Source: an uncultured Clostridia bacterium (GTDB taxonomy: Bacteria > Bacillota > Clostridia > Christensenellales > UBA1242). Taken from it: 64,000 nucleotides of DNA. The stretch spans positions 650-64,649 of the forward strand of contig CATKXS010000005.1 of NCBI GenBank assembly GCA_949841045.1, in the 5' to 3' direction. The position numbers and the translations under genes are program-made. Within the stretch, counting starts at the first letter, position 1; every line of letters begins with the position of its first letter. A model generated the notes under the pieces. That model was not told the DNA's origin, searched no databases, and worked only from the letters and a program-made list of their open reading frames with translations. Positions 1,463 through 64,000 of the stretch are shown here, one piece after another.

Positions 1463-1610
1463 AAAATGCATACCATAAAACGGCATGCTTTTTTGTTGTC
1501 TATTTTACATGTTTCTCTATTTTTATATATAAATCGACAAATTTGATATTTTAAATAATATGAAAAATAAAAATGATTGGCATTATTAAACATTATTTTT
1601 GCAATATTAC

Positions 1611-1637
1611 TTGACAAATTTCGGGGGGGGGTATAAT
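1611..1637 (+). promoter_or_regulatory. Sigma-A type promoter with G9 tract in the spacer
   Basis: TTGACA 1611-1616, 15-nt spacer containing G9 (1623-1631), TATAAT 1632-1637; lies about 30 nt upstream of the 1667 start. Confidence 0.6.
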
Positions 1638-1666: not shown

Positions 1667-2062
1667 ATGTATATTACAACCATAACGATACTTTTACTAT
1701 TAGGCGGTATAGTTGTTGCTTTAACAAATTTATTTGTAAAAAATAGTACAAAAGTAAAGGAGATACATATGGAAGAAAATAACAACAATAATGGTACTAA
1801 CATTCAGCATGAATCTAAAACGGCAGTCGGTGTTCTCTTGGGACTGTTTTTAGGTTTGATTGGTCTAGTAATAGGTTTATTATTGTACAAAGAGAACACG
1901 ACGGAACGCTCAACTTTTATAAAGGGTTGGTTATGGGCTTTTTTGATTGCTGTTATTGCTGGTGTAGTAATAGGTATAATAGTTTATGTTACAACACTTA
2001 ATTCTTTGAATGGAATATTAAACAATAGCAGAAATATATATGGCTTAATTAAATCTATGTAG
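1667..2062 (+). CDS. small multi-pass membrane protein, function unknown
   Basis: ORF-track frame 1655..2062. ATG 1667 follows GGAGG (1657-1661). Three hydrophobic segments and a poly-Asn linker. Confidence 0.6.
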   Translation: MYITTITILLLLGGIVVALTNLFVKNSTKVKEIHMEENNNNNGTNIQHESKTAVGVLLGLFLGLIGLVIGLLLYKENTTERSTFIKGWLWAFLIAVIAGVVIGIIVYVTTLNSLNGILNNSRNIYGLIKSM

Positions 2063-2074
2063 TATATTCAAAAG

Positions 2075-2102
2075 CAAATAGAGTCAGTCTATTTGTTTTT
2101 TG
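2075..2102 (+). terminator. Rho-independent terminator
   Basis: caaataga / tctatttg 8-bp stem followed by a T-run. Confidence 0.7.
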
Positions 2103-2291: not shown

Positions 2292-4916
2292 ATGAAACAA
2301 TTTGTTTACTTATTTAAAGAAGCTGATGGAAAAAACAAAGCTCTCTTTGGTGGCAAGGGTGCAAACCTCGCCGAAATGACTAATCTTGGTATGCCTGTTC
2401 CACAAGGTTTTACCGTTACTACTGAGGCCTGCACTCAGTACTATAAGGACGGAAGAAAAATTAACGACCTTATTATGAATCAAATCGAGTACAAGCTTTC
2501 TGAGCTTGAAAAAATGACTGGTAAAAAGTTTGGAGATAAAAACAATCCACTTCTTGTATCAGTTCGTTCAGGTGCACGCGTATCTATGCCTGGTATGATG
2601 GATACTATCCTCAACCTTGGTCTTAACGACGTTGTTGTTGAAGGACTTGCTAAACTCACAAAAAATCCTAGATTTGCTTATGACTCTTACAGAAGATTTA
2701 TTCAAATGTTCTCTGATGTTGTTATGCAACAAGAAAAATCTAAGTATGAAAGAATCCTTGACAAAGTTAAGGAAGAGAAGGGTGTAGAGTTTGATAAAGA
2801 CCTTTCTGCTGACGACCTTAAAGAGATTGTAAAATTATTTAAAGACCTTTACAAGAAATCTCAAGGCGAGGATTTCCCACAAGAACCAAAAACTCAACTT
2901 ATTGAAGCTGTTAAAGCGGTATTCCGTTCTTGGGATAACGACAGAGCCAACGTTTACAGAAGAATGCATGACATTCCTTACGAATGGGGAACTGCTGTTA
3001 ACGTTCAATCAATGGTATTTGGTAACATGGGTGAAACATCTGGTACTGGTGTTGCTTTCTCTCGTAACCCTTCTACTGGTGAAAACAAACTCTATGGTGA
3101 ATACCTTATGAACGCACAAGGCGAAGACGTTGTTGCTGGTATTAGAACACCACTCCCAATTTCTACTCTTGAAAAACAAAACCCACAAGTTTACAAACAA
3201 TTTGCTGATATTGCAAAGAAACTTGAAAAACACAACAAAGATATGCAAGATATGGAGTTCACTATCGAAAATGGCAAACTCTATATGCTTCAAACAAGAA
3301 ATGGTAAGAGAACAGCTAAGGCTGCACTCAAAGTTGCCGTTGACCTTGTTAGCGAGGGTATGATTACCGAAAAAGAAGCACTTATGATGCTTGACCCTAA
3401 ACAACTCGATGCTCTTCTTCACCCTCAATTTAATGAAAAAGCTCTTAAAAATGCCCAAGCAATTGCTGAAGCTCTTCCAGCTTCTCCTGGTGCTGCTTGT
3501 GGTAAAATCTGCTTTACAGCAGAACATGCTAAAGAACTTGCAAAGACAGAGAAAGTTGTTCTTGTAAGACTTGAAACATCTCCAGAAGATATTGAAGGTA
3601 TGGCTGCCAGCCAAGGTGTCCTCACTGCTCGTGGTGGTATGACTTCTCACGCTGCCGTTGTTGCTCGTGGTATGGGTACTGCTTGCGTTGCTGGTTGCAG
3701 TGCAATCAAATTTGCTGAAGACGAAAAATCTTTCACTCTTAATGGCAAAACTTACCTTGAAGGAGATGAAATCTCATTTGACGGTTCTACTGGTAAAATT
3801 TATGACGGTATTATCGCAACTGAACCTGCTAAAATTTCTGGCGAATTCGCTACTATTATGGAATGGGCTGATAAATATCGTGCTATGCAAGTTCGTACAA
3901 ACGCTGATAATCCAAAAGATGCTAAAAATGCATTCAACTTTGGCGCTCAAGGCGTAGGCCTTTGCAGAACAGAGCATATGTTCTTTGAAGCTGACAGAAT
4001 TCCTGCAGTTAGAGAAATGATTGTTTCTTCAACTGTTGAAGAAAGAAAGAGAGCTCTTGCAAAACTCCTTCCAATGCAAAGAAAAGACTTTATTGGAATT
4101 TACAAGGCAATGCAAGGTCTTCCTGTTACAATCCGTTTCCTTGACCCACCTCTTCACGAATTCCTTCCTCACGAAGATGGTGAAATTAGAGCACTAGCAA
4201 ACGAAATGGGCATCACTTTTGAAAGACTTAAACAAACAGTTGCTGACCTTCACGAATTTAACCCAATGATGGGTCACCGTGGACTTCGTCTTGCTGTAAC
4301 TTATCCTGAAATTGCTGAAATGCAAACTCAAGCGGTTATTGAAGCGGCTATCTCTGTAAACAAAGAAATGGGCTTCAAGATTGTTCCAGAAATCATGATT
4401 CCTCTTACTTGCGACAGCAAAGAGTTCAAGTATGTAAGAGATATTGTTGCTGCTAAGGCTGATGAAATCATCGCTAAGAATGGTGCTGAACTTAACTACA
4501 AGATTGGTACTATGATTGAAATTCCACGTGCTGCTGTAACTGCTGATGAAGTTGCTAAGTATGCTGAATTCTTCTCATTCGGTACTAATGACCTTACTCA
4601 AATGTCTTATGGCTTCAGCCGTGATGACGCGGGTAAATTCCTTGATGTTTACTATGCTAAGAAAATTTTTGAAAGCGACCCATTCGCTAGACTTGACCAA
4701 AACGGTGTTGGTAAACTCGTTAAAATGGCTTGCGAGCTTGGAAGAAAAGAAAGACCATCAATCAAACTTGGAATTTGTGGTGAACATGGTGGAGACCCAT
4801 CAAGTGTTGAATTCTGCCACAATACTGGCCTTACTTACGTTTCTTGCTCTCCATTCAGAGTCCCAATTGCAAGACTTGCCGCTGCTCAAGCAAATATTAA
4901 AAACCCAAGAAGATAA
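2292..4916 (+). CDS. ppdK: pyruvate, phosphate dikinase
   Basis: 874 aa. Shows GGKGANLAEM, the phosphohistidine region GGMTSHAAVVARG and C-terminal GICGEHGGDP. RBS aaggag lies before the ATG. Confidence 0.95.
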   Translation: MKQFVYLFKEADGKNKALFGGKGANLAEMTNLGMPVPQGFTVTTEACTQYYKDGRKINDLIMNQIEYKLSELEKMTGKKFGDKNNPLLVSVRSGARVSMPGMMDTILNLGLNDVVVEGLAKLTKNPRFAYDSYRRFIQMFSDVVMQQEKSKYERILDKVKEEKGVEFDKDLSADDLKEIVKLFKDLYKKSQGEDFPQEPKTQLIEAVKAVFRSWDNDRANVYRRMHDIPYEWGTAVNVQSMVFGNMGETSGTGVAFSRNPSTGENKLYGEYLMNAQGEDVVAGIRTPLPISTLEKQNPQVYKQFADIAKKLEKHNKDMQDMEFTIENGKLYMLQTRNGKRTAKAALKVAVDLVSEGMITEKEALMMLDPKQLDALLHPQFNEKALKNAQAIAEALPASPGAACGKICFTAEHAKELAKTEKVVLVRLETSPEDIEGMAASQGVLTARGGMTSHAAVVARGMGTACVAGCSAIKFAEDEKSFTLNGKTYLEGDEISFDGSTGKIYDGIIATEPAKISGEFATIMEWADKYRAMQVRTNADNPKDAKNAFNFGAQGVGLCRTEHMFFEADRIPAVREMIVSSTVEERKRALAKLLPMQRKDFIGIYKAMQGLPVTIRFLDPPLHEFLPHEDGEIRALANEMGITFERLKQTVADLHEFNPMMGHRGLRLAVTYPEIAEMQTQAVIEAAISVNKEMGFKIVPEIMIPLTCDSKEFKYVRDIVAAKADEIIAKNGAELNYKIGTMIEIPRAAVTADEVAKYAEFFSFGTNDLTQMSYGFSRDDAGKFLDVYYAKKIFESDPFARLDQNGVGKLVKMACELGRKERPSIKLGICGEHGGDPSSVEFCHNTGLTYVSCSPFRVPIARLAAAQANIKNPRR

Positions 4917-24096: not shown

Positions 24097-24109
24097 GACG
24101 CTTTTTTTA
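24088..24109 (+). terminator. Rho-independent terminator with the stop codon in the loop
   Basis: GCGTCTT/AAGACGC perfect palindrome centred on the TAA stop (24094-96), then T7. Confidence 0.7.
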
Positions 24110-24193
24110 ACGCAATAAAAACACGCATATTATTCTAATGATAAACTTATTTTTACTGGTTCTGTAAATTTTTGACTATTTTTTAAAAACATA

Positions 24194-24221
24194 TTGACAA
24201 AGCCCCCCCTCCGAGTATACT
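24194..24221 (+). promoter_or_regulatory. Sigma-A type promoter with C7 tract in the spacer
   Basis: TTGACA 24194-99, 16-nt spacer containing C7 (24203-09), TATACT 24216-21. Confidence 0.55.
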
Positions 24222-24239
24222 TGAATTATGGAGAAGAAT

Positions 24240-24788
24240 ATGAAGAAAAAAGGTATTTTAAAATCTGATAAATTTTTAAGAATGGCTGTCAAGGCATGTG
24301 CAGTTCAAATTGGGGCTGTGGTTCTCGCAGCTTTATCAGCAATTCCTTTAGGAATTGTAGCAGGAGTTTATGGAGAGCCGGTTGATAGAATGCAATATGA
24401 AATAAAAGCTTCACCAACATATATTCAGTATGTGCAAGACAAGACTGAAGAATATAAAGAAGATTTATATCTTAATAAAATTACACCAGAAGAGTATATG
24501 GCAAAGATAAATGATTTGAGCGATATTGATGCTTATTTAAAATCTGATGCGCCTGAATACGAAATGGCAAAATATAGTGAACTTGTTGAAAGAAAAAATA
24601 CTGCGATATGTGGTGCTGGCGGAACAACATTTAGTTTTATAGTAGCAAGTGCAGCTGCAGGCTTTTTTGCGCTTGGGGCGTTGATTTTAAGTAAATCATC
24701 TGAGATAAATGAGGAAGACGAGGAAAGTGGCGCAGAAGAAGAGGAAGAAGATTTTGATGATTTAACGGAAACAGAATATGAGTTTTAG
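24240..24788 (+). CDS. membrane protein with acidic C-terminal tail
   Basis: ORF-track frame 24228..24788. ATG 24240 follows GGAGA. Two TM segments; the tail is EEDEESGAEEEEEDFDD. Confidence 0.6.
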   Translation: MKKKGILKSDKFLRMAVKACAVQIGAVVLAALSAIPLGIVAGVYGEPVDRMQYEIKASPTYIQYVQDKTEEYKEDLYLNKITPEEYMAKINDLSDIDAYLKSDAPEYEMAKYSELVERKNTAICGAGGTTFSFIVASAAAGFFALGALILSKSSEINEEDEESGAEEEEEDFDDLTETEYEF

Positions 24789-31495: not shown

Positions 31496-32806
31496 ATGTT
31501 TAATGTGAAAGGTAAAAATGTGCTTGTTTATGGCATGGGAATAAGTGGGCAGTCGGCCTGCAAGCTCTTGCATGAAAAGGGGGCTTGCGTTTCGACTTAT
31601 GATGATGAAGAACGCTTTGCTTCCTACTTTGCCTATGAAAAAAATCCTATTCAAAAAAGGTATGATTTAATTGTTGTAAGTCCTGGAATTAAGGTTCAGG
31701 GGAATGGGCTTATAACTCACTTTATGATGAGCGGAACTAAGGTCATAAGTGAACTTGACCTTGGCTTCGCTTTTTGTCGCGGAAAGGTGATTGGAATTAC
31801 TGGAACAAATGGCAAAACTACTGTAACTTCGCTTGTTGGAGACATATTCAAAAAGAGCGGGAGAAAGACTTTTGTTTGCGGAAATATTGGACTGCCTATC
31901 TGCTCGATTGCGCCACAGACAAGCGATGATTGTGTAATCGTGTGCGAAGTTAGCAATTTTCAACTTGAGCTTTCTTCAATGTTTAAAGCCAGCACTGCTT
32001 GTGTGTTAAACCTTGCGCCCGACCATATTGACAGGCATGGAAGTTATGAAGAATATTTAAGAGTTAAAGGTAAAATCCTTACTCATAAACGTAGGCAAAG
32101 GGTTGTGCTTAATTATGACGATGAAAGTGTAAATAGGCTTCAAAATAACAGAAAAACGCTATTTTTTTCAAAAAAAATGCTTAAAAAGGGCGTTTTTATT
32201 AAAAATAATTGGATTTTTTATAACAAAACCAAAATTTTACCGCTTAGCGAAATACCTCTTTTTGGCGAAAAAAATCTTGAAAATGTATTATCAGCAGTGG
32301 CTATTGCAGTTACTCATAAGGTTAAGCCAAATGTCATTCGAGAGACTGTGAGGGAGTTTAAAGCGCCACCACACCGAATTGAATATCTTGGACAGGTGAA
32401 TGGCGCAGACGTCTTTGATGACTCAAAGGCTACAAACATTTCCTCTACACTTTCTGCTGTAGGTTCGCTTGGTGATAGAGGACTGGTTCTCCTTGTTGGC
32501 GGACAAAACAAGGGTTTTCAATTTGATGAGATTTTTAACAAAGGCTGGGATTTTGAAGCATTGTTATGTTTTGGTGACGCGGGGCAGGCACTTTTTGATA
32601 CTGCGGTTAAATATGGTTATAACCCCCTCATTTTCCCAACTATGAAAGCGGCAACTTATTTTGCAAAATCAAATGCGTGCGAGGGTCAGAAAATCTTACT
32701 TTCTCCCTCATGTGCAAGCTTTGACGAATTCTCTTCTTATGCAGTTCGAGGAGAGGTTTTTAAGGAGATAATGTTAGGTGAAACTAAGCAAATTGAAATG
32801 TCGTAA
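31496..32806 (+). CDS. murD: UDP-MurNAc-L-alanine--D-glutamate ligase
   Basis: GMGISG, ITGTNGKTT and DDSKATN. ATG 31496 follows GAGGAAG. Confidence 0.9.
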   Translation: MFNVKGKNVLVYGMGISGQSACKLLHEKGACVSTYDDEERFASYFAYEKNPIQKRYDLIVVSPGIKVQGNGLITHFMMSGTKVISELDLGFAFCRGKVIGITGTNGKTTVTSLVGDIFKKSGRKTFVCGNIGLPICSIAPQTSDDCVIVCEVSNFQLELSSMFKASTACVLNLAPDHIDRHGSYEEYLRVKGKILTHKRRQRVVLNYDDESVNRLQNNRKTLFFSKKMLKKGVFIKNNWIFYNKTKILPLSEIPLFGEKNLENVLSAVAIAVTHKVKPNVIRETVREFKAPPHRIEYLGQVNGADVFDDSKATNISSTLSAVGSLGDRGLVLLVGGQNKGFQFDEIFNKGWDFEALLCFGDAGQALFDTAVKYGYNPLIFPTMKAATYFAKSNACEGQKILLSPSCASFDEFSSYAVRGEVFKEIMLGETKQIEMS

Positions 32807-53804: not shown

Positions 53805-53831
53805 TTGACAAATCCCCCCCCCGATTAAAAT
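53805..53831 (+). promoter_or_regulatory. Sigma-A type promoter with C9 tract in the spacer
   Basis: TTGACA 53805-10, 15-nt spacer containing C9 (53814-22), TAAAAT 53826-31. Confidence 0.55.
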
Positions 53832-53872
53832 ATAAGTATGCGGTGGCGAGAATGCCACAAAAGGAGGGGATT

Positions 53873-54859
53873 ATGTATTGGGATAAAGGAGATATTGCTT
53901 TTTTTACTATAATGGGTACAATTGCATTGGGAACAGTTGGTGCAGTCGGAGGGCTTATTGCACATGGAATAAACGTAGGAGTTGTTAGTGCTAGCGTTGG
54001 TAACAATATTACTAAAATAGAAGAAAAGAGAAAAGAGCTCAGTAATATTGTTGCAAATAAAGCAAATATCGATAACTTTGATATTGCTTCGGTTGAACTT
54101 GCTAGAGGTGCAGAGGACAAATATTTATTTAAGGCTTTTGGCAGCACAAGTTACGAACAAATTGTAGGGCTAAAAGAAAACAAATATCTAAATGTTTTCT
54201 TTGAAATTTCACAATATGACGCAAACAAGATTATGGACAGCGTAAGAAAACTAGATGAGACCGAGAGAAGAAGAGATTTGACTTCAACTGAGCATAGTGC
54301 AATTTTAGATGAAACACAAGTAAATGAATGGAAATTTACTGAAAACGGAAGAATTGGAAAAACTACTGACGCTTGTGTAGAATTATATAACGCAATGAAC
54401 GAGGCTGTTCAAAGAGCTTATTCGTCAAAATTTGAGGAGATTTTTGAGGCAAGCAACATAAACAACGCAACTTCAAAAGTTTATAGATATATGAGACCAG
54501 AGTTTGTTGGTGACACTCATGTAAGCGGATTCTTTGCACATGGAAATACAGTTTTTGTAAATGCAGGTGTTATGACAACTAATATTTCTCAAGTTATAAA
54601 AGATGAAGAGAAAGGCATAAGTTATTTCTTAGTCGATACTTTGCAAGGTCGTGAAAATAATGGAGATATTGTTGTAGATACTTGTCGTGCAAGAGTTGAA
54701 ATTGAAGGTACAGACCTATCTCAAGAAGAGGTTTATGCTAAATTTGTAAAAGGCGAGTATTCAAGCTTTGTTGAACTGGCTCGAGAAAAAGTTGGAAGCA
54801 AGGTTAGTGTTGTAAATAATGCGCTTGCCTCTGATGTTGAAGAAATTGAACTCTTGTAG
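53873..54859 (+). CDS. N-terminally membrane-anchored protein, function unknown
   Basis: ORF-track frame 53843..54859. ATG 53873 follows AAGGAGGGG. One TM segment, then about 290 aa predicted extracytoplasmic. Confidence 0.6.
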   Translation: MYWDKGDIAFFTIMGTIALGTVGAVGGLIAHGINVGVVSASVGNNITKIEEKRKELSNIVANKANIDNFDIASVELARGAEDKYLFKAFGSTSYEQIVGLKENKYLNVFFEISQYDANKIMDSVRKLDETERRRDLTSTEHSAILDETQVNEWKFTENGRIGKTTDACVELYNAMNEAVQRAYSSKFEEIFEASNINNATSKVYRYMRPEFVGDTHVSGFFAHGNTVFVNAGVMTTNISQVIKDEEKGISYFLVDTLQGRENNGDIVVDTCRARVEIEGTDLSQEEVYAKFVKGEYSSFVELAREKVGSKVSVVNNALASDVEEIELL

Positions 54860-62707: not shown

Positions 62708-64000
62708 ATGAAAAAAATAAAAAGATTTAGTTTATATATTTTTGTAGCTCTTGTTTTAGGTTTACTTGGAACTCTTGCCCTAACCTTGCCTAATTCGGGG
62801 GGGGGCTCAGCAAAATGCTGAAGTTGGCATAGAGAAAGACTCGGCTTATGCTGCAACTACTACTGCAACTGTTTTTGGATATTATTCTAGTAGTTTAATT
62901 AATGCTGAAGAGTATCACGATGTCAATGGCAGAGGTTACCCTGAATGGTTAGGCAATTTGGCAACATTTTCAATGAGAATAGGAAGCACGACTTATTCAA
63001 TATCTGGACGAACAAACATTAGTTTGACTAGTGGGACTACATATACGTTCACTGTTTTGACAGTACCGACAGGTTATAATTTTGTAGGCTGGTGGGAAGA
63101 AGAGGACCTATCAGATGATGCAAATTCATTTTATGATTATTACCTACGCTCAACCTCGACAAGTTGTTCAATGACTGCTAAGTGGGGATATATTGACTAT
63201 TTTCCAGTTTTTGAACCTGCGGGTGCAACCTATACCATCACTGCAAACGGAAATGGTGGACGTGTAGGCAATGCAGATGATGAATGGCTACATAGTAGTG
63301 ATTATACTACCGCAACACGAAGGGTCTTTGTTGGAGATACGTATGCTGCTTTGCCTGAAGGAGGAAATCGAAGTGGATATATTTTTACAGGGTGGTATAC
63401 TTAACAATCCGCTGCCAACAGTTCAAATCCAAATTACTTGGTTTTACAAAATAAGGTTGCAACAAGCAATGCAACAATTTATGCAGGCTGGAAATCAGTA
63501 GGTAGTACTAACTATATCCGTACCATATTAGTGTACAGGCAGACACTTCCAATTACATATTCTAATGGTTGGTATCAAACTCTTTATGATGAATATTATT
63601 ATAAATATTTTGTTTCAGGTTCAAATTGGAATATTCCAACTACAAATTCTGGCTATGACGTAACATATAATACCAACATAAATGGTACAGGCTCTCAAGT
63701 CACCACAGGTACAACTGTGACTTCAAATACCTATTTCGCTTATGCACAAGTCAACGCGAAACAATTTACTATTACATATCATAGTAATTATGGAAGTGAT
63801 GAGACTAAAACTCAAGGCGTTGTTTATGATACACCTTTGAATATTCGAGAAGGTTTGTCTAGGCCGGGCTATACTTTTTTAGGTTGGGGGAAATCTTCCA
63901 TTCAAACTAGTCCAACTTATACCGCAGGACAATCTGTCACAAATCCATTTGGTGCAAGCGGTGGAGACCTTTATGCAATATGGAGTGCGAACTCCTACAC
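62708..64000 (+). pseudogene. large secreted Listeria-Bacteroides-repeat (GY.F.GW) surface protein; out of frame at a G9 tract, with an in-frame TAA; continues past the window end
   Basis: Signal peptide MKKIKRFSLYIFVALVLGLLGTLALTLPNSGGG is followed by G9 (62797-805) and a stop at 62819. The +1 frame is open from 62805 through the track ORF 62958..63404. After TAA (63402-04) the same frame stays open to 64000. Repeats GYNFVGW, GYIFTGW and GYTFLGW are present. Confidence 0.7.

What the first reader, a model, noticed from the sequence alone, without database searches (positions are those of the whole stretch)
1611..1637. G9 homopolymer inside a promoter spacer (TTGACA-N15-TATAAT): candidate slipped-strand expression switch
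A run of nine G (1623-1631) in very AT-rich DNA lies exactly between consensus -35 and -10 hexamers. It sits upstream of a small membrane-protein gene. The present spacer is 15 nt, shorter than the about 17 nt that is optimal for sigma-70-type promoters. Gain of two G would restore the optimum. Homopolymer tracts in promoter spacers are an established phase-variation mechanism in Neisseria, Haemophilus and Mycoplasma. Similar architecture recurs twice more in this window, at 24194 and 53805. In all three cases TTGACAAA precedes the tract.
Basis: partly seen in the sequence, partly recalled or inferred. Interest (0 to 1): 0.62.

Follow-up and report, generated by a model that had tools for sequence, protein, structure and literature searches.

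The report
Poly-G promoter switch, parked short
A run of nine G's sits between the two recognition boxes of a promoter for a small membrane protein in an uncultured mouse-gut bacterium, and it is one of about twenty such slippery promoters in a 1.16-Mb genome, so it is most likely a known kind of random expression switch seen here in an unstudied commensal lineage, though this particular run has not yet been seen to change length.

Summary
In detail: TTGACA (1611-1616), a 15-nt spacer ending in G9 (1623-1631), then TATAAT (1632-1637). It lies upstream of a stand-alone small membrane-protein gene.

It is not chance. The genome (1.16 Mb, 34% GC) should hold about 0.2 G/C runs of 9 or more and has 24. 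About 20 of its 31 runs of 7 or more lie in -35/-10 spacers. Ordinary promoters here peak at a 17-nt spacer. Tract promoters sit at 15-16 and none at 17, and the same holds across about 230 tract promoters in sister species.

Tract length is the variable part. Site 2 is C7 in the reference and C9 in a second strain. In 7 of 12 multi-copy promoter modules in sister species, the copies differ only in tract length.

However, site 1 itself is G9 in both strains available. No raw reads were on hand to test heterogeneity within a population, and the RNA data are too thin.

Verdict: this is most likely a porA-type slipped-strand promoter switch or dimmer, currently in a low state. It belongs to a genus-wide set of tract-bearing loci (a phasome) centred on promoters. 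It is a new member of a known kind.

The parts
1468..1488 (.). Terminator hairpin closing the upstream gene (734-1462). It isolates the small gene from read-through.
   Evidence: 9-pair stem, T/A runs on both sides; sequence.
1600..1608 (+). TGCAATATT, an extended -10-like element ending 2 nt before the -35. It is a conserved part of the G-type module and may be an overlapping promoter that does not depend on the tract.
   Evidence: present at the same offset in 8 of 9 G-type tract promoters against 6 of 174 ordinary promoters (Fisher p = 8e-7). Its function is inferred only.
1611..1616 (+). -35 hexamer TTGACA (consensus).
1617..1631 (+). 15-nt spacer, aatttc + G9. It is two short of this genome's 17-nt optimum.
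   Evidence: ordinary promoters: 15 nt in 2, 16 in 27, 17 in 89, 18 in 18.
1623..1631 (+). G9 homopolymer abutting the -10; the proposed slippage tract.
   Evidence: G9 in X1, X2 and X6 contigs.
1632..1637 (+). -10 hexamer TATAAT (consensus). The transcription start is predicted near 1644 and is not mapped.
   Evidence: The standard 16-18-nt scan does not call this promoter because of the short spacer, and finds no comparably strong alternative.
1667..2062 (+). Small membrane-protein gene. The long form is 131 aa from ATG 1667 (SD GGAGG 1657-1661). The conserved 97-aa two-TM core starts at ATG 1769 (SD AAGGAG 1757-1762).
   Evidence: only sub-threshold TM-protein Pfam hits; homologues in 13 of 61 genus genomes begin at the equivalent of 1769. 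In strain B, 1667-1763 is about 16% diverged with two compensating indels, while 1764-1944 is identical.
2075..2100 (+). AT-rich hairpin (CAAATAGA / TCTATTTG) followed by T5; the likely terminator of the small gene.
   Evidence: Read from the sequence. It falls below the GC threshold of the scan.
24194..24221 (+). Site 2: C-type tract promoter, TTGACA-aag-C7(T)CC-gag-TATACT, spacer 16. The C7 tract is 24203-24209.
   Evidence: In strain B (X2, X6) two extra C are present (C9) while only 2 other letters change in 24104-24274.
24240..24788 (+). Site 2 gene: a 182-aa two-TM protein, member of a four-member paralogous family behind tract promoters.
   Evidence: paralogues at C10:48538, C13:15161, C6:37043; no Pfam family.
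53805..53831 (+). Site 3: C-type tract promoter, TTGACA-aat-C9-gat-TAAAAT, spacer 15. The C9 tract is 53814-53822.
   Evidence: C9 in X2, X3, X6 and X20 contigs.
53873..54859 (+). Site 3 gene: a 328-aa protein with an N-terminal TM anchor.
   Evidence: no Pfam family.
62797..62805 (+). G9 tract inside a surface-protein gene, just after the signal peptide. This is a translational-type tract of the same phasome.
   Evidence: At G9 the signal peptide and the body are in different frames. Paralogues on C7 (C10, in frame) and C13 (C10, out of frame).

Best explanation
The G9 run is the mutable element of a sigma-A-type promoter that drives a stand-alone small membrane-protein gene.

Proposed mechanism: during replication the homopolymer slips and gains or loses a G. 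Each step changes the -35/-10 spacing by 1 bp, and so changes promoter strength. At G9 the spacer is 15 nt, which this genome's ordinary promoters almost never use, so the assembled majority state is predicted to be weak or off. G10 (16 nt) would give intermediate expression and G11 (17 nt) full expression. The promoter would then work as a heritable, reversible dimmer, like Neisseria porA.

It is one of about 20 promoter tracts, plus about 10 intragenic tracts, in this 1.16-Mb genome. The promoter tracts come in two conserved modules. In the G-type, the tract abuts the -10 and a TGnTAAAAT-like element sits 2 nt upstream of the -35. In the C-type, the tract lies 3-4 nt after the -35 and a 3-nt linker precedes the -10. 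Most control surface, lipoprotein or small membrane proteins.

Shown: the anatomy, the non-random excess and purity of tracts, the 15-16-nt parking, the recurrence across the genus, and length differences between strains and between identical modules.

Inferred: slippage at this particular tract, the dependence of expression on tract length, the transcription start, and the benefit (bet-hedging of envelope proteins against antibody or phage).
For: Anatomy: consensus hexamers with G9 in the spacer. The unit is insulated by terminators and has no alternative strong promoter.

Excess and purity: 24 G/C runs of 9 or more against 0.2 expected, and 24 perfect tracts against 5 singly interrupted ones. 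The run-length distribution is bimodal.

Location: about 20 of 31 tracts lie in promoter spacers.

Spacing: ordinary promoters peak at 17 nt (89 sites) with 2 at 15. Tract promoters have 15 nt in 8-9, 16 in 3-5 and none at 17.

Genus survey: C-type in 51 of 101 genomes and G-type in 28 of 101, with controls 0. The modal C tract is 9 (96 of 143). G tracts are G8 in 42 and G9 in 41 of 85. Spacers peak at 16 then 15, and only 9 of 143 and 11 of 85 are at 17.

Variability: site 2 is C7 against C9 between strains with near-identical flanks. In 7 of 12 multi-copy identical-flank modules the copies differ only in tract length. G010 holds 13 such modules with G7, G8 or G9.

Conservation of the feature: homologues of the site-1 gene in sister species carry G9, G9, G8 or C7 tracts in otherwise unrelated promoter sequence, or else ordinary promoters with spacers of about 17-18 nt.

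Gene class: 14 of about 20 downstream genes encode signal-peptide, lipoprotein or TM proteins, including Listeria-Bacteroides repeat proteins.

Precedents: porA 11G is high, 10G about 2-fold lower and 9G about 13-fold lower (PMC3639595). Campylobacter poly-G/C tracts also peak at 9 (PMC6321876).

RNA, weak: no RNA contig covers the site-1 gene while the neighbouring PPDK is covered. A gene behind a spacer-16 G9 promoter is covered.
Against: The tract at site 1 is G9 in both strains available, the reference type in X1 and a strain about 4% diverged in X2 and X6. Site 3 and C16:16792 are likewise unchanged between those strains.

One sister species has 12 copies of one module, all G8, so tracts are not always variable between copies.

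No raw reads were available, so heterogeneity within a population, the defining property, is untested. MutS is present, so no mismatch-repair defect can be invoked.

The transcription start is unmapped. The conserved TGnTAAAAT-like element just upstream of the -35 could be an overlapping extended -10 promoter that makes expression partly independent of the tract.

The metatranscriptome coverage of this organism is too thin (depth 2-15 on a glycolytic gene) to call a 300-400-nt gene silent.
Confidence: 0.68

Rival explanations
1. The promoter is fixed and deliberately weak. On this view the G/C tract is kept at about 9 by selection for some other property, such as a rigid or A-like spacer, binding of an unknown factor, or a set low expression level. 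It does not switch at a biologically meaningful rate.
For: G9 or C9 is identical in two diverged strains at four of five promoter tracts compared. The length distribution is tight around 8-9 in more than 200 promoters of the genus. 12 copies in G066 are all G8. MutS is present.
Against: A structural or binding role would tolerate interruptions, yet perfect tracts outnumber singly interrupted ones 24 to 5. Length does differ between strains at site 2 and within 7 of 12 identical-flank modules. G and C orientations and different flanks serve homologous genes, so no common binding motif exists beyond the homopolymer. The same modal length of 9 is seen in Campylobacter tracts that are experimentally phase-variable.
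Confidence: 0.17
2. Transcription really starts from the conserved extended -10-like element (TGCAATATT, 1600-1608) just upstream. The tract then lies in the initially transcribed region, where it acts through reiterative transcription or promoter escape (pyrG/pyrBI-like), or has no effect. The TTGACA/TATAAT pair would be secondary.
For: A TGn(T/A)AnWWW element ends exactly 2 nt before the -35 in 8 of 9 G-type modules against 6 of 174 ordinary promoters. Several modules carry a T6-7 run followed by G9 just downstream of where such a start would fall.
Against: C-type modules (sites 2 and 3) lack the element entirely yet share the tract-in-spacer design. At site 1 the element is a poor -10 (AATATT). 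The perfect TTGACA and TATAAT hexamers flanking the tract across dozens of species are hard to explain if they are not used. No start-site data exist either way.
Confidence: 0.1
3. The pattern is chance, or an assembly or sequencing artefact of homopolymers in a metagenome-assembled genome.
For: The genome is a 34-contig MAG assembled from low-depth data. Homopolymers are error-prone in some chemistries.
Against: The same G9 or C9 is recovered in independent runs from three studies. No contig end stops in a G/C run. There is a more than 100-fold excess over expectation. Reversed-pattern controls give 0 hits in 101 genomes.
Confidence: 0.01

Closest known systems
Neisseria meningitidis porA promoter (poly-G between -35 and -10); also opc and fetA (poly-C)
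   Same: A G/C homopolymer of 9-11 lies inside the spacer of a sigma-70-type promoter of an envelope protein. Each slip changes the spacing by 1 bp, and expression is graded, not simply on or off (11G high, 10G about 2-fold lower, 9G about 13-fold lower; PMC3639595).
   Different: Here the organism is an uncultured, genome-reduced gut Clostridia commensal, not a proteobacterial pathogen. About 20 promoters per 1.16 Mb use the device, in two conserved modules. The assembled state is almost always 1-2 bp short of the optimum. Neither switching nor an effect on expression has been measured.
Campylobacter jejuni / C. coli poly-G phasome
   Same: An AT-rich small genome carries about 30 poly-G/C tracts whose lengths peak at 9 (53% at 9 and 26% at 10 in Campylobacter, PMC6321876; here 22 of 31 at 9). 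They sit mostly in surface-structure genes.
   Different: In Campylobacter about 80% of tracts are intragenic (translational switching) and mismatch repair is absent. Here about two thirds are in promoter spacers (transcriptional) and MutS is present.
Treponema pallidum tpr / tp0126 promoter poly-G; Mycoplasma hyorhinis vlp promoter poly-A; Haemophilus influenzae hifA/B TA repeats; Bordetella fim poly-C
   Same: Repeat tracts within or next to promoter spacers modulate transcription of families of surface proteins or lipoproteins in host-restricted bacteria with small genomes. This comparison rests on my own knowledge; PMC7864442 appeared.
   Different: The repeat unit, position or lineage differs. 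None is in Clostridia. The composite G-type module with an upstream TGnTAAAAT-like element has no described counterpart that I know of.

Membership tests
Promoter-spacer SSR phase variation (porA/opc/hif/vlp type) | Simple-sequence tract long enough to be unstable (about 7-8 or more G/C) | tested here: met
   G9 at 1623-1631.
Promoter-spacer SSR phase variation (porA/opc/hif/vlp type) | Tract lies between the functional -35 and -10 elements of the promoter that drives the gene | tested here: inconclusive
   Consensus TTGACA and TATAAT flank the tract. The unit is terminator-insulated and has no other strong promoter. The transcription start is not mapped, and an overlapping extended -10-like element exists.
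Promoter-spacer SSR phase variation (porA/opc/hif/vlp type) | Tract length varies reversibly at high frequency within a clonal population | not testable with these tools
   Only assembler contigs were available, no raw reads. Between strains, site 1 is unchanged and site 2 differs by 2 nt. In 7 of 12 identical-flank modules the copies differ only in tract length.
Promoter-spacer SSR phase variation (porA/opc/hif/vlp type) | Expression level depends on tract length | not testable with these tools
   Only indirect evidence. A 15-nt spacer is almost unused by ordinary promoters here. No RNA contigs cover the site-1 gene, while a spacer-16 tract gene is transcribed. Coverage is too thin to decide.
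Multi-locus contingency-gene phasome (Campylobacter/Neisseria/Haemophilus type) | Many SSR tracts per genome, far above chance, kept pure | tested here: met
   31 tracts of 7 or more. 24 of 9 or more against 0.2 expected. 24 perfect against 5 interrupted.
Multi-locus contingency-gene phasome (Campylobacter/Neisseria/Haemophilus type) | Tracts associated with surface, envelope or host-interaction genes | tested here: met
   14 of about 20 promoter-tract genes have a signal peptide, lipobox or TM segments. Flg_new repeat proteins and an MBOAT gene carry tracts.
Multi-locus contingency-gene phasome (Campylobacter/Neisseria/Haemophilus type) | Tract presence conserved but length variable among relatives | tested here: met
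Reiterative-transcription control (pyrG / pyrBI / codBA type) | Homopolymer at or just after the transcription start, with nucleotide-pool-dependent slippage of RNA polymerase | not tested
   It would require a start at the upstream TGnTAAAAT-like element. There are no start-site data, and C-type modules lack the element.

The most novel reading that the evidence does not exclude
A whole genus of uncultured, genome-reduced gut Clostridia (genomes of about 0.7-1.5 Mb) runs a promoter-centred poly-G/C phasome built from two portable promoter cassettes. It follows a design rule: the resting tract length (8-9) parks each otherwise consensus promoter one or two slips short of the 17-nt optimum. Envelope and small membrane proteins would then be 'rare-ON' bet-hedged.

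This would be a multi-locus SSR phasome in non-pathogenic commensals. It would run counter to the apparent restriction of such genomes to pathogens that PMC11868660 notes. Avoidance of the 17-nt spacing by G9 or longer consensus promoters may extend across many gut lineages.
Probability: 0.4. Interest if true: 0.65.

Novelty: new member of a known kind. Interest (0 to 1): 0.45.

Why it matters
Repeat-driven phase variation has been worked out almost entirely in pathogens. If about 20 promoters in a 1.16-Mb commensal genome, and hundreds across its genus, are slippage dimmers for envelope proteins, several things follow. Stochastic surface variation would be a core life-style trait of uncultured gut Clostridia with reduced genomes. 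Metagenome consensus sequences would hide functionally distinct subpopulations. Tract lengths would also become a cheap, readable marker of selection by IgA or phage in gut samples. The systematic parking at 15-16 nt is a concrete rule that can be tested with reporters.

Tried and rejected
1. Strain-level alleles of site 1. A metagenome-contig scan for the promoter core with a free-length tract gave 0 hits. Exact-product look-ups for the upstream gene and for both forms of the small protein found no records.

2. PPDK as a synteny anchor. The closest relatives are only 92-93% identical. Their contigs carry different genes upstream of PPDK, and the 145-aa gene in L140 is not homologous. These loci gave no orthologous promoter.

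3. Lack of mismatch repair as an explanation for instability: rejected, because a full-length MutS is present.

4. Assembly bias against long tracts: no contig end stops in a G/C run.

5. Metatranscriptomes. Only three runs hold the organism, at low depth. They are uninformative for site 3 and only suggestive for site 1.

6. A structured 5' leader. The fold of 1644-1775 is not significant (z = -1.47).

7. Function of the site-1 protein. Pfam gives only sub-threshold hits to TM proteins.

8. Literature searches found no description of promoter-spacer homopolymers in gut commensal Clostridia or MAGs in the held library. This is absence in a limited library, not proof of novelty.

Full report
**Observation**

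TTGACA is at 1611-1616. A 15-nt spacer (aatttc + G9) spans 1617-1631, with the G9 at 1623-1631. TATAAT is at 1632-1637.

The two other sites are real but belong to a different class. Site 2 is TTGACA (24194) aag-C7-tccgag TATACT, with a 16-nt spacer and an interrupted tract (CCCCCCCTCC). Site 3 is TTGACA (53805) aat-C9-gat TAAAAT, with a 15-nt spacer.

A fourth run, G9 at 62797-62805, lies inside a surface-protein gene just after its signal peptide.

**Is it more than chance?**

The window is C5:650-64649 of a genome of 1.16 Mb in 34 contigs with 33.8% GC. Earlier notes of this scan and the run metadata place it in an uncultured mouse-gut Clostridia lineage.

G/C run lengths across the genome are bimodal: 12 of length 6, 2 of 7, 5 of 8, 22 of 9 and 2 of 10. 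A first-order Markov model expects 0.2 runs of 9 or more, and 24 are observed. Perfect tracts outnumber singly interrupted ones 24 to 5. No contig end stops in a G/C run. The same tracts are recovered from independent runs of three studies. An assembly artefact is therefore excluded.

**Genome-wide anatomy**

About 20 of the 31 tracts of 7 or more lie between a TTGAC-type -35 and a TAnnnT -10. They fall into two modules.

- G-type (site 1's class): TTGAC[AT], then 6-7 A/T-rich bases ending in C, then G8-9 directly abutting TAWAAT. Eight of nine also have a TGn(T/A)AnWWW element ending exactly 2 nt upstream of the -35 (site 1: TGCAATATT, 1600-1608). Only 6 of 174 ordinary promoters have such an element (Fisher p = 8e-7).
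- C-type (sites 2 and 3): an A/T-rich upstream stretch, TTGACA, AAT(A), C8-9, GAT or GAG, then TAAAAT or TATACT. This type has no upstream TG element.

**Spacing**

Ordinary promoters of this genome (TTGAC[AT]...TA[TA]AAT without a tract) have spacers of 15 nt in 2 cases, 16 in 27, 17 in 89 and 18 in 18. Tract promoters have 15 in 8-9, 16 in 3-5, 18 in 1 and none at 17.

Site 1 is two bases short of the optimum, at a spacing that ordinary promoters here almost never use. The standard 16-18-nt promoter scan accordingly fails to call it. It also finds no comparably strong alternative between the upstream terminator hairpin (1468-1488) and the gene. PPDK downstream has its own TTGTAA-17-TATAAT promoter at 2240-2268.

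The unit is thus monocistronic and depends on the tract promoter. The one caveat is the TGCAATATT element.

**The regulated genes**

At site 1 the ORF 1667-2062 (131 aa) contains a conserved 97-aa two-TM core that starts at ATG 1769 with its own Shine-Dalgarno sequence. Homologues in 13 of 61 genomes of the genus start at the equivalent of 1769.

In a second strain, 1667-1763 is about 16% diverged and carries two compensating indels, while 1764-1944 is identical. Pfam gives only sub-threshold TM hits.

Of the roughly 20 genes behind tract promoters, 14 encode signal-peptide, lipoprotein or TM proteins. These include four Listeria-Bacteroides-repeat surface proteins, a lipoprotein, and a four-member family of two-TM proteins that includes the site-2 gene. 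The rest are soluble proteins of unknown function and a DUF4116 repeat protein.

About ten further tracts are intragenic. They include three paralogous surface-protein genes with G9 or G10 after the signal peptide, in different frames, and an MBOAT acyltransferase gene.

**Does tract length vary?**

Direct evidence is limited to assembler contigs of public runs, because no raw-read runs were offered. Two strain types are visible: the reference type (X1, X3) and a type diverged by about 1-4% (X2, X4, X6, X20).

- Site 1: G9 in both strains.
- Site 3: C9 in both.
- C16:16792: G9 in both.
- Site 2: C7 in the reference, and two extra C in the other strain, with only two substitutions over the surrounding 170 nt.

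So one of the promoter tracts compared between strains differs, by 2 nt. The tract named in the finding does not.

Comparative evidence is broader.

- The C-type pattern occurs in 51 of 101 genomes of the genus and the G-type in 28 of 101. Reversed-pattern controls give zero hits. The G-type pattern occurs in none of 16 other families of the order.
- Among 143 C-type promoters, tract length is 7 in 5, 8 in 28, 9 in 96, 10 in 13 and 11 in 1.
- Among 85 G-type promoters, it is 8 in 42, 9 in 41 and 10 in 2.
- In 7 of 12 modules present in several copies with identical flanks, the copies differ only in tract length. G010 has 13 copies with G7, G8 or G9.
- Against this, one species has 12 copies that are all G8.
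- Homologues of the site-1 gene in sister species carry G9 (spacer 16, twice), G8 (spacer 15) or C7 (spacer 14) in promoters whose remaining sequence is unrelated. Others have ordinary tract-free promoters with spacers of about 17-18 nt, two of them with a palindromic operator.

What is conserved is the tract-in-spacer feature, not the surrounding sequence.

**The parking rule**

Tract promoters across the genus sit at spacers of 16 and 15. For the C-type the counts are 14 in 13, 15 in 39, 16 in 57 and 17 in 9. Six of the nine at 17 carry C10. For the G-type the counts are 15 in 23, 16 in 47 and 17 in 11.

Most come from gut Clostridia MAGs. Others come from Bacilli, Treponema, Saccharibacteria, Streptobacillus, Helicobacter and Blautia. 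Their spacers are 14 in 4, 15 in 20, 16 in 26, 17 in 9 and 18 in 47 (partly tallied by hand from match lengths).

In assembled, majority-state sequence, tract promoters avoid the optimum and sit one or two slips from it.

**Expression**

Three metatranscriptomes from the study that also holds the reference-type DNA cover PPDK (2292-4916) at depth 2-15. They have no contig over 700-2290, which includes the site-1 gene.

A lipoprotein gene behind a spacer-16 G9 promoter is covered at depth about 3, like its neighbours. A small gene behind another spacer-15 promoter is not covered. Site 3 lies in a stretch too sparsely covered to judge.

This fits '15 is low, 16 is intermediate', but it is weak evidence.

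**Mechanism and rivals**

The best-supported reading (0.68) is a porA-type slipped-strand dimmer. G9 gives a 15-nt spacer and low expression, G10 intermediate, and G11 full. In porA, 11G, 10G and 9G give high, about 2-fold lower and about 13-fold lower surface expression (PMC3639595). The modal length of 9 matches the Campylobacter phasome (PMC6321876).

Rivals:
- A fixed weak or structural spacer (0.17). It is favoured by the identical lengths in two strains and disfavoured by tract purity and by the length differences seen elsewhere.
- Initiation from the upstream extended -10-like element, with the tract in the initially transcribed region (0.10). It cannot apply to the C-type modules.
- Chance or artefact (0.01).

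MutS is present, so no mismatch-repair defect can be invoked.

**Comparison and novelty**

Mechanistically this is the classical promoter-spacer repeat switch. Membership cannot be formally completed, because its two defining dynamic properties could not be tested with the tools available. These are reversible length change within a population and length-dependent expression.

What is new is the host lineage (uncultured, genome-reduced gut Clostridia), the number of promoters involved, the two conserved cassettes, and the systematic parking short of the optimum.

[quoted passage not shown] My searches of the held library found no description of such promoters in gut commensal Clostridia.

Earlier notes of this scan report similar promoters in other gut MAGs. 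They are leads, not independent evidence. They suggest that the phenomenon is common, which lowers the surprise of any single instance.

**Verdict**

It is a new member of a known kind, of moderate interest.

Noticed in passing
window 62797-62805; G000 C7:1532-1541; C13:1146-1155: Three paralogous Listeria-Bacteroides-repeat surface-protein genes carry G9 or G10 right after the signal peptide. At the assembled lengths one is in frame (C7, 555-codon open frame) and two are out of frame. This looks like translational switching within a gene family.
   Followed up: partly
species-representative genomes, loci L020-L138: Consensus TTGACA/TATAAT promoters with G9 or longer abutting the -10 occur in at least 119 stretches from many gut lineages. 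Their spacers avoid 17 nt (14 in 4, 15 in 20, 16 in 26, 17 in 9, 18 in 47).
   Followed up: partly
window 1600-1608 and the same offset in G000 C4, C8, C12, C16 (twice), C18, C28: A TGn(T/A)AnWWW element (mostly TGGTAAAAT) ends exactly 2 nt upstream of the -35 in 8 of 9 G-type tract promoters, but in only 6 of 174 ordinary promoters. It may be an overlapping extended -10 promoter or a regulator site.
   Followed up: partly
window 53843-53858; G000 C10, about 31620-31640: Two C-type promoters are followed in the 5' leader by a hairpin with the same stem (GTGGC/GCCAC) but different loops (GAGAAT and TGGTGC), just ahead of the ribosome-binding site.
   Followed up: no
window 24240-24420: In the second strain (X2, X6) the site-2 gene has one A fewer in the A6 run right after its ATG (24246), which would shift the frame. 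In addition, 24275-24413 is replaced by 139 unlike letters. The gene is either hypervariable or decaying there.
   Followed up: no
G000 C28:1760-1768 and 2019-2027: Two copies of the same G-type promoter module lie 259 nt apart upstream of one surface-protein gene. The upstream copy lacks a recognisable -10.
   Followed up: no
G000 C20:16176 (GGGAGGGGG-TATAAT) and window 24203-24212: Interrupted tracts sit in otherwise typical tract promoters. They look like switches locked by a point mutation.
   Followed up: no
window 1463 leftwards; loci L139-L142: The slot upstream of PPDK is variable. The second strain diverges immediately left of 1463, and the closest PPDK relatives carry unrelated genes there. 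One is a 145-aa gene paired with a divergent XRE-type regulator. The site-1 unit behaves like an accessory cassette.
   Followed up: partly
G000 C12:34540, C8:17390, C12:22827, C2:55860: In-frame G9 or C9 tracts (encoding Gly-Gly-Gly) lie inside genes for an MBOAT acyltransferase, a metallo-beta-lactamase-fold hydrolase, a xylose-isomerase-like TIM-barrel protein and a serine hydrolase.
   Followed up: partly
G087 C11:226-252: A sister species has the exact site-1 core TTGACAAATTTC-G9 followed by TAAAAT. The downstream gene was not examined.
   Followed up: no
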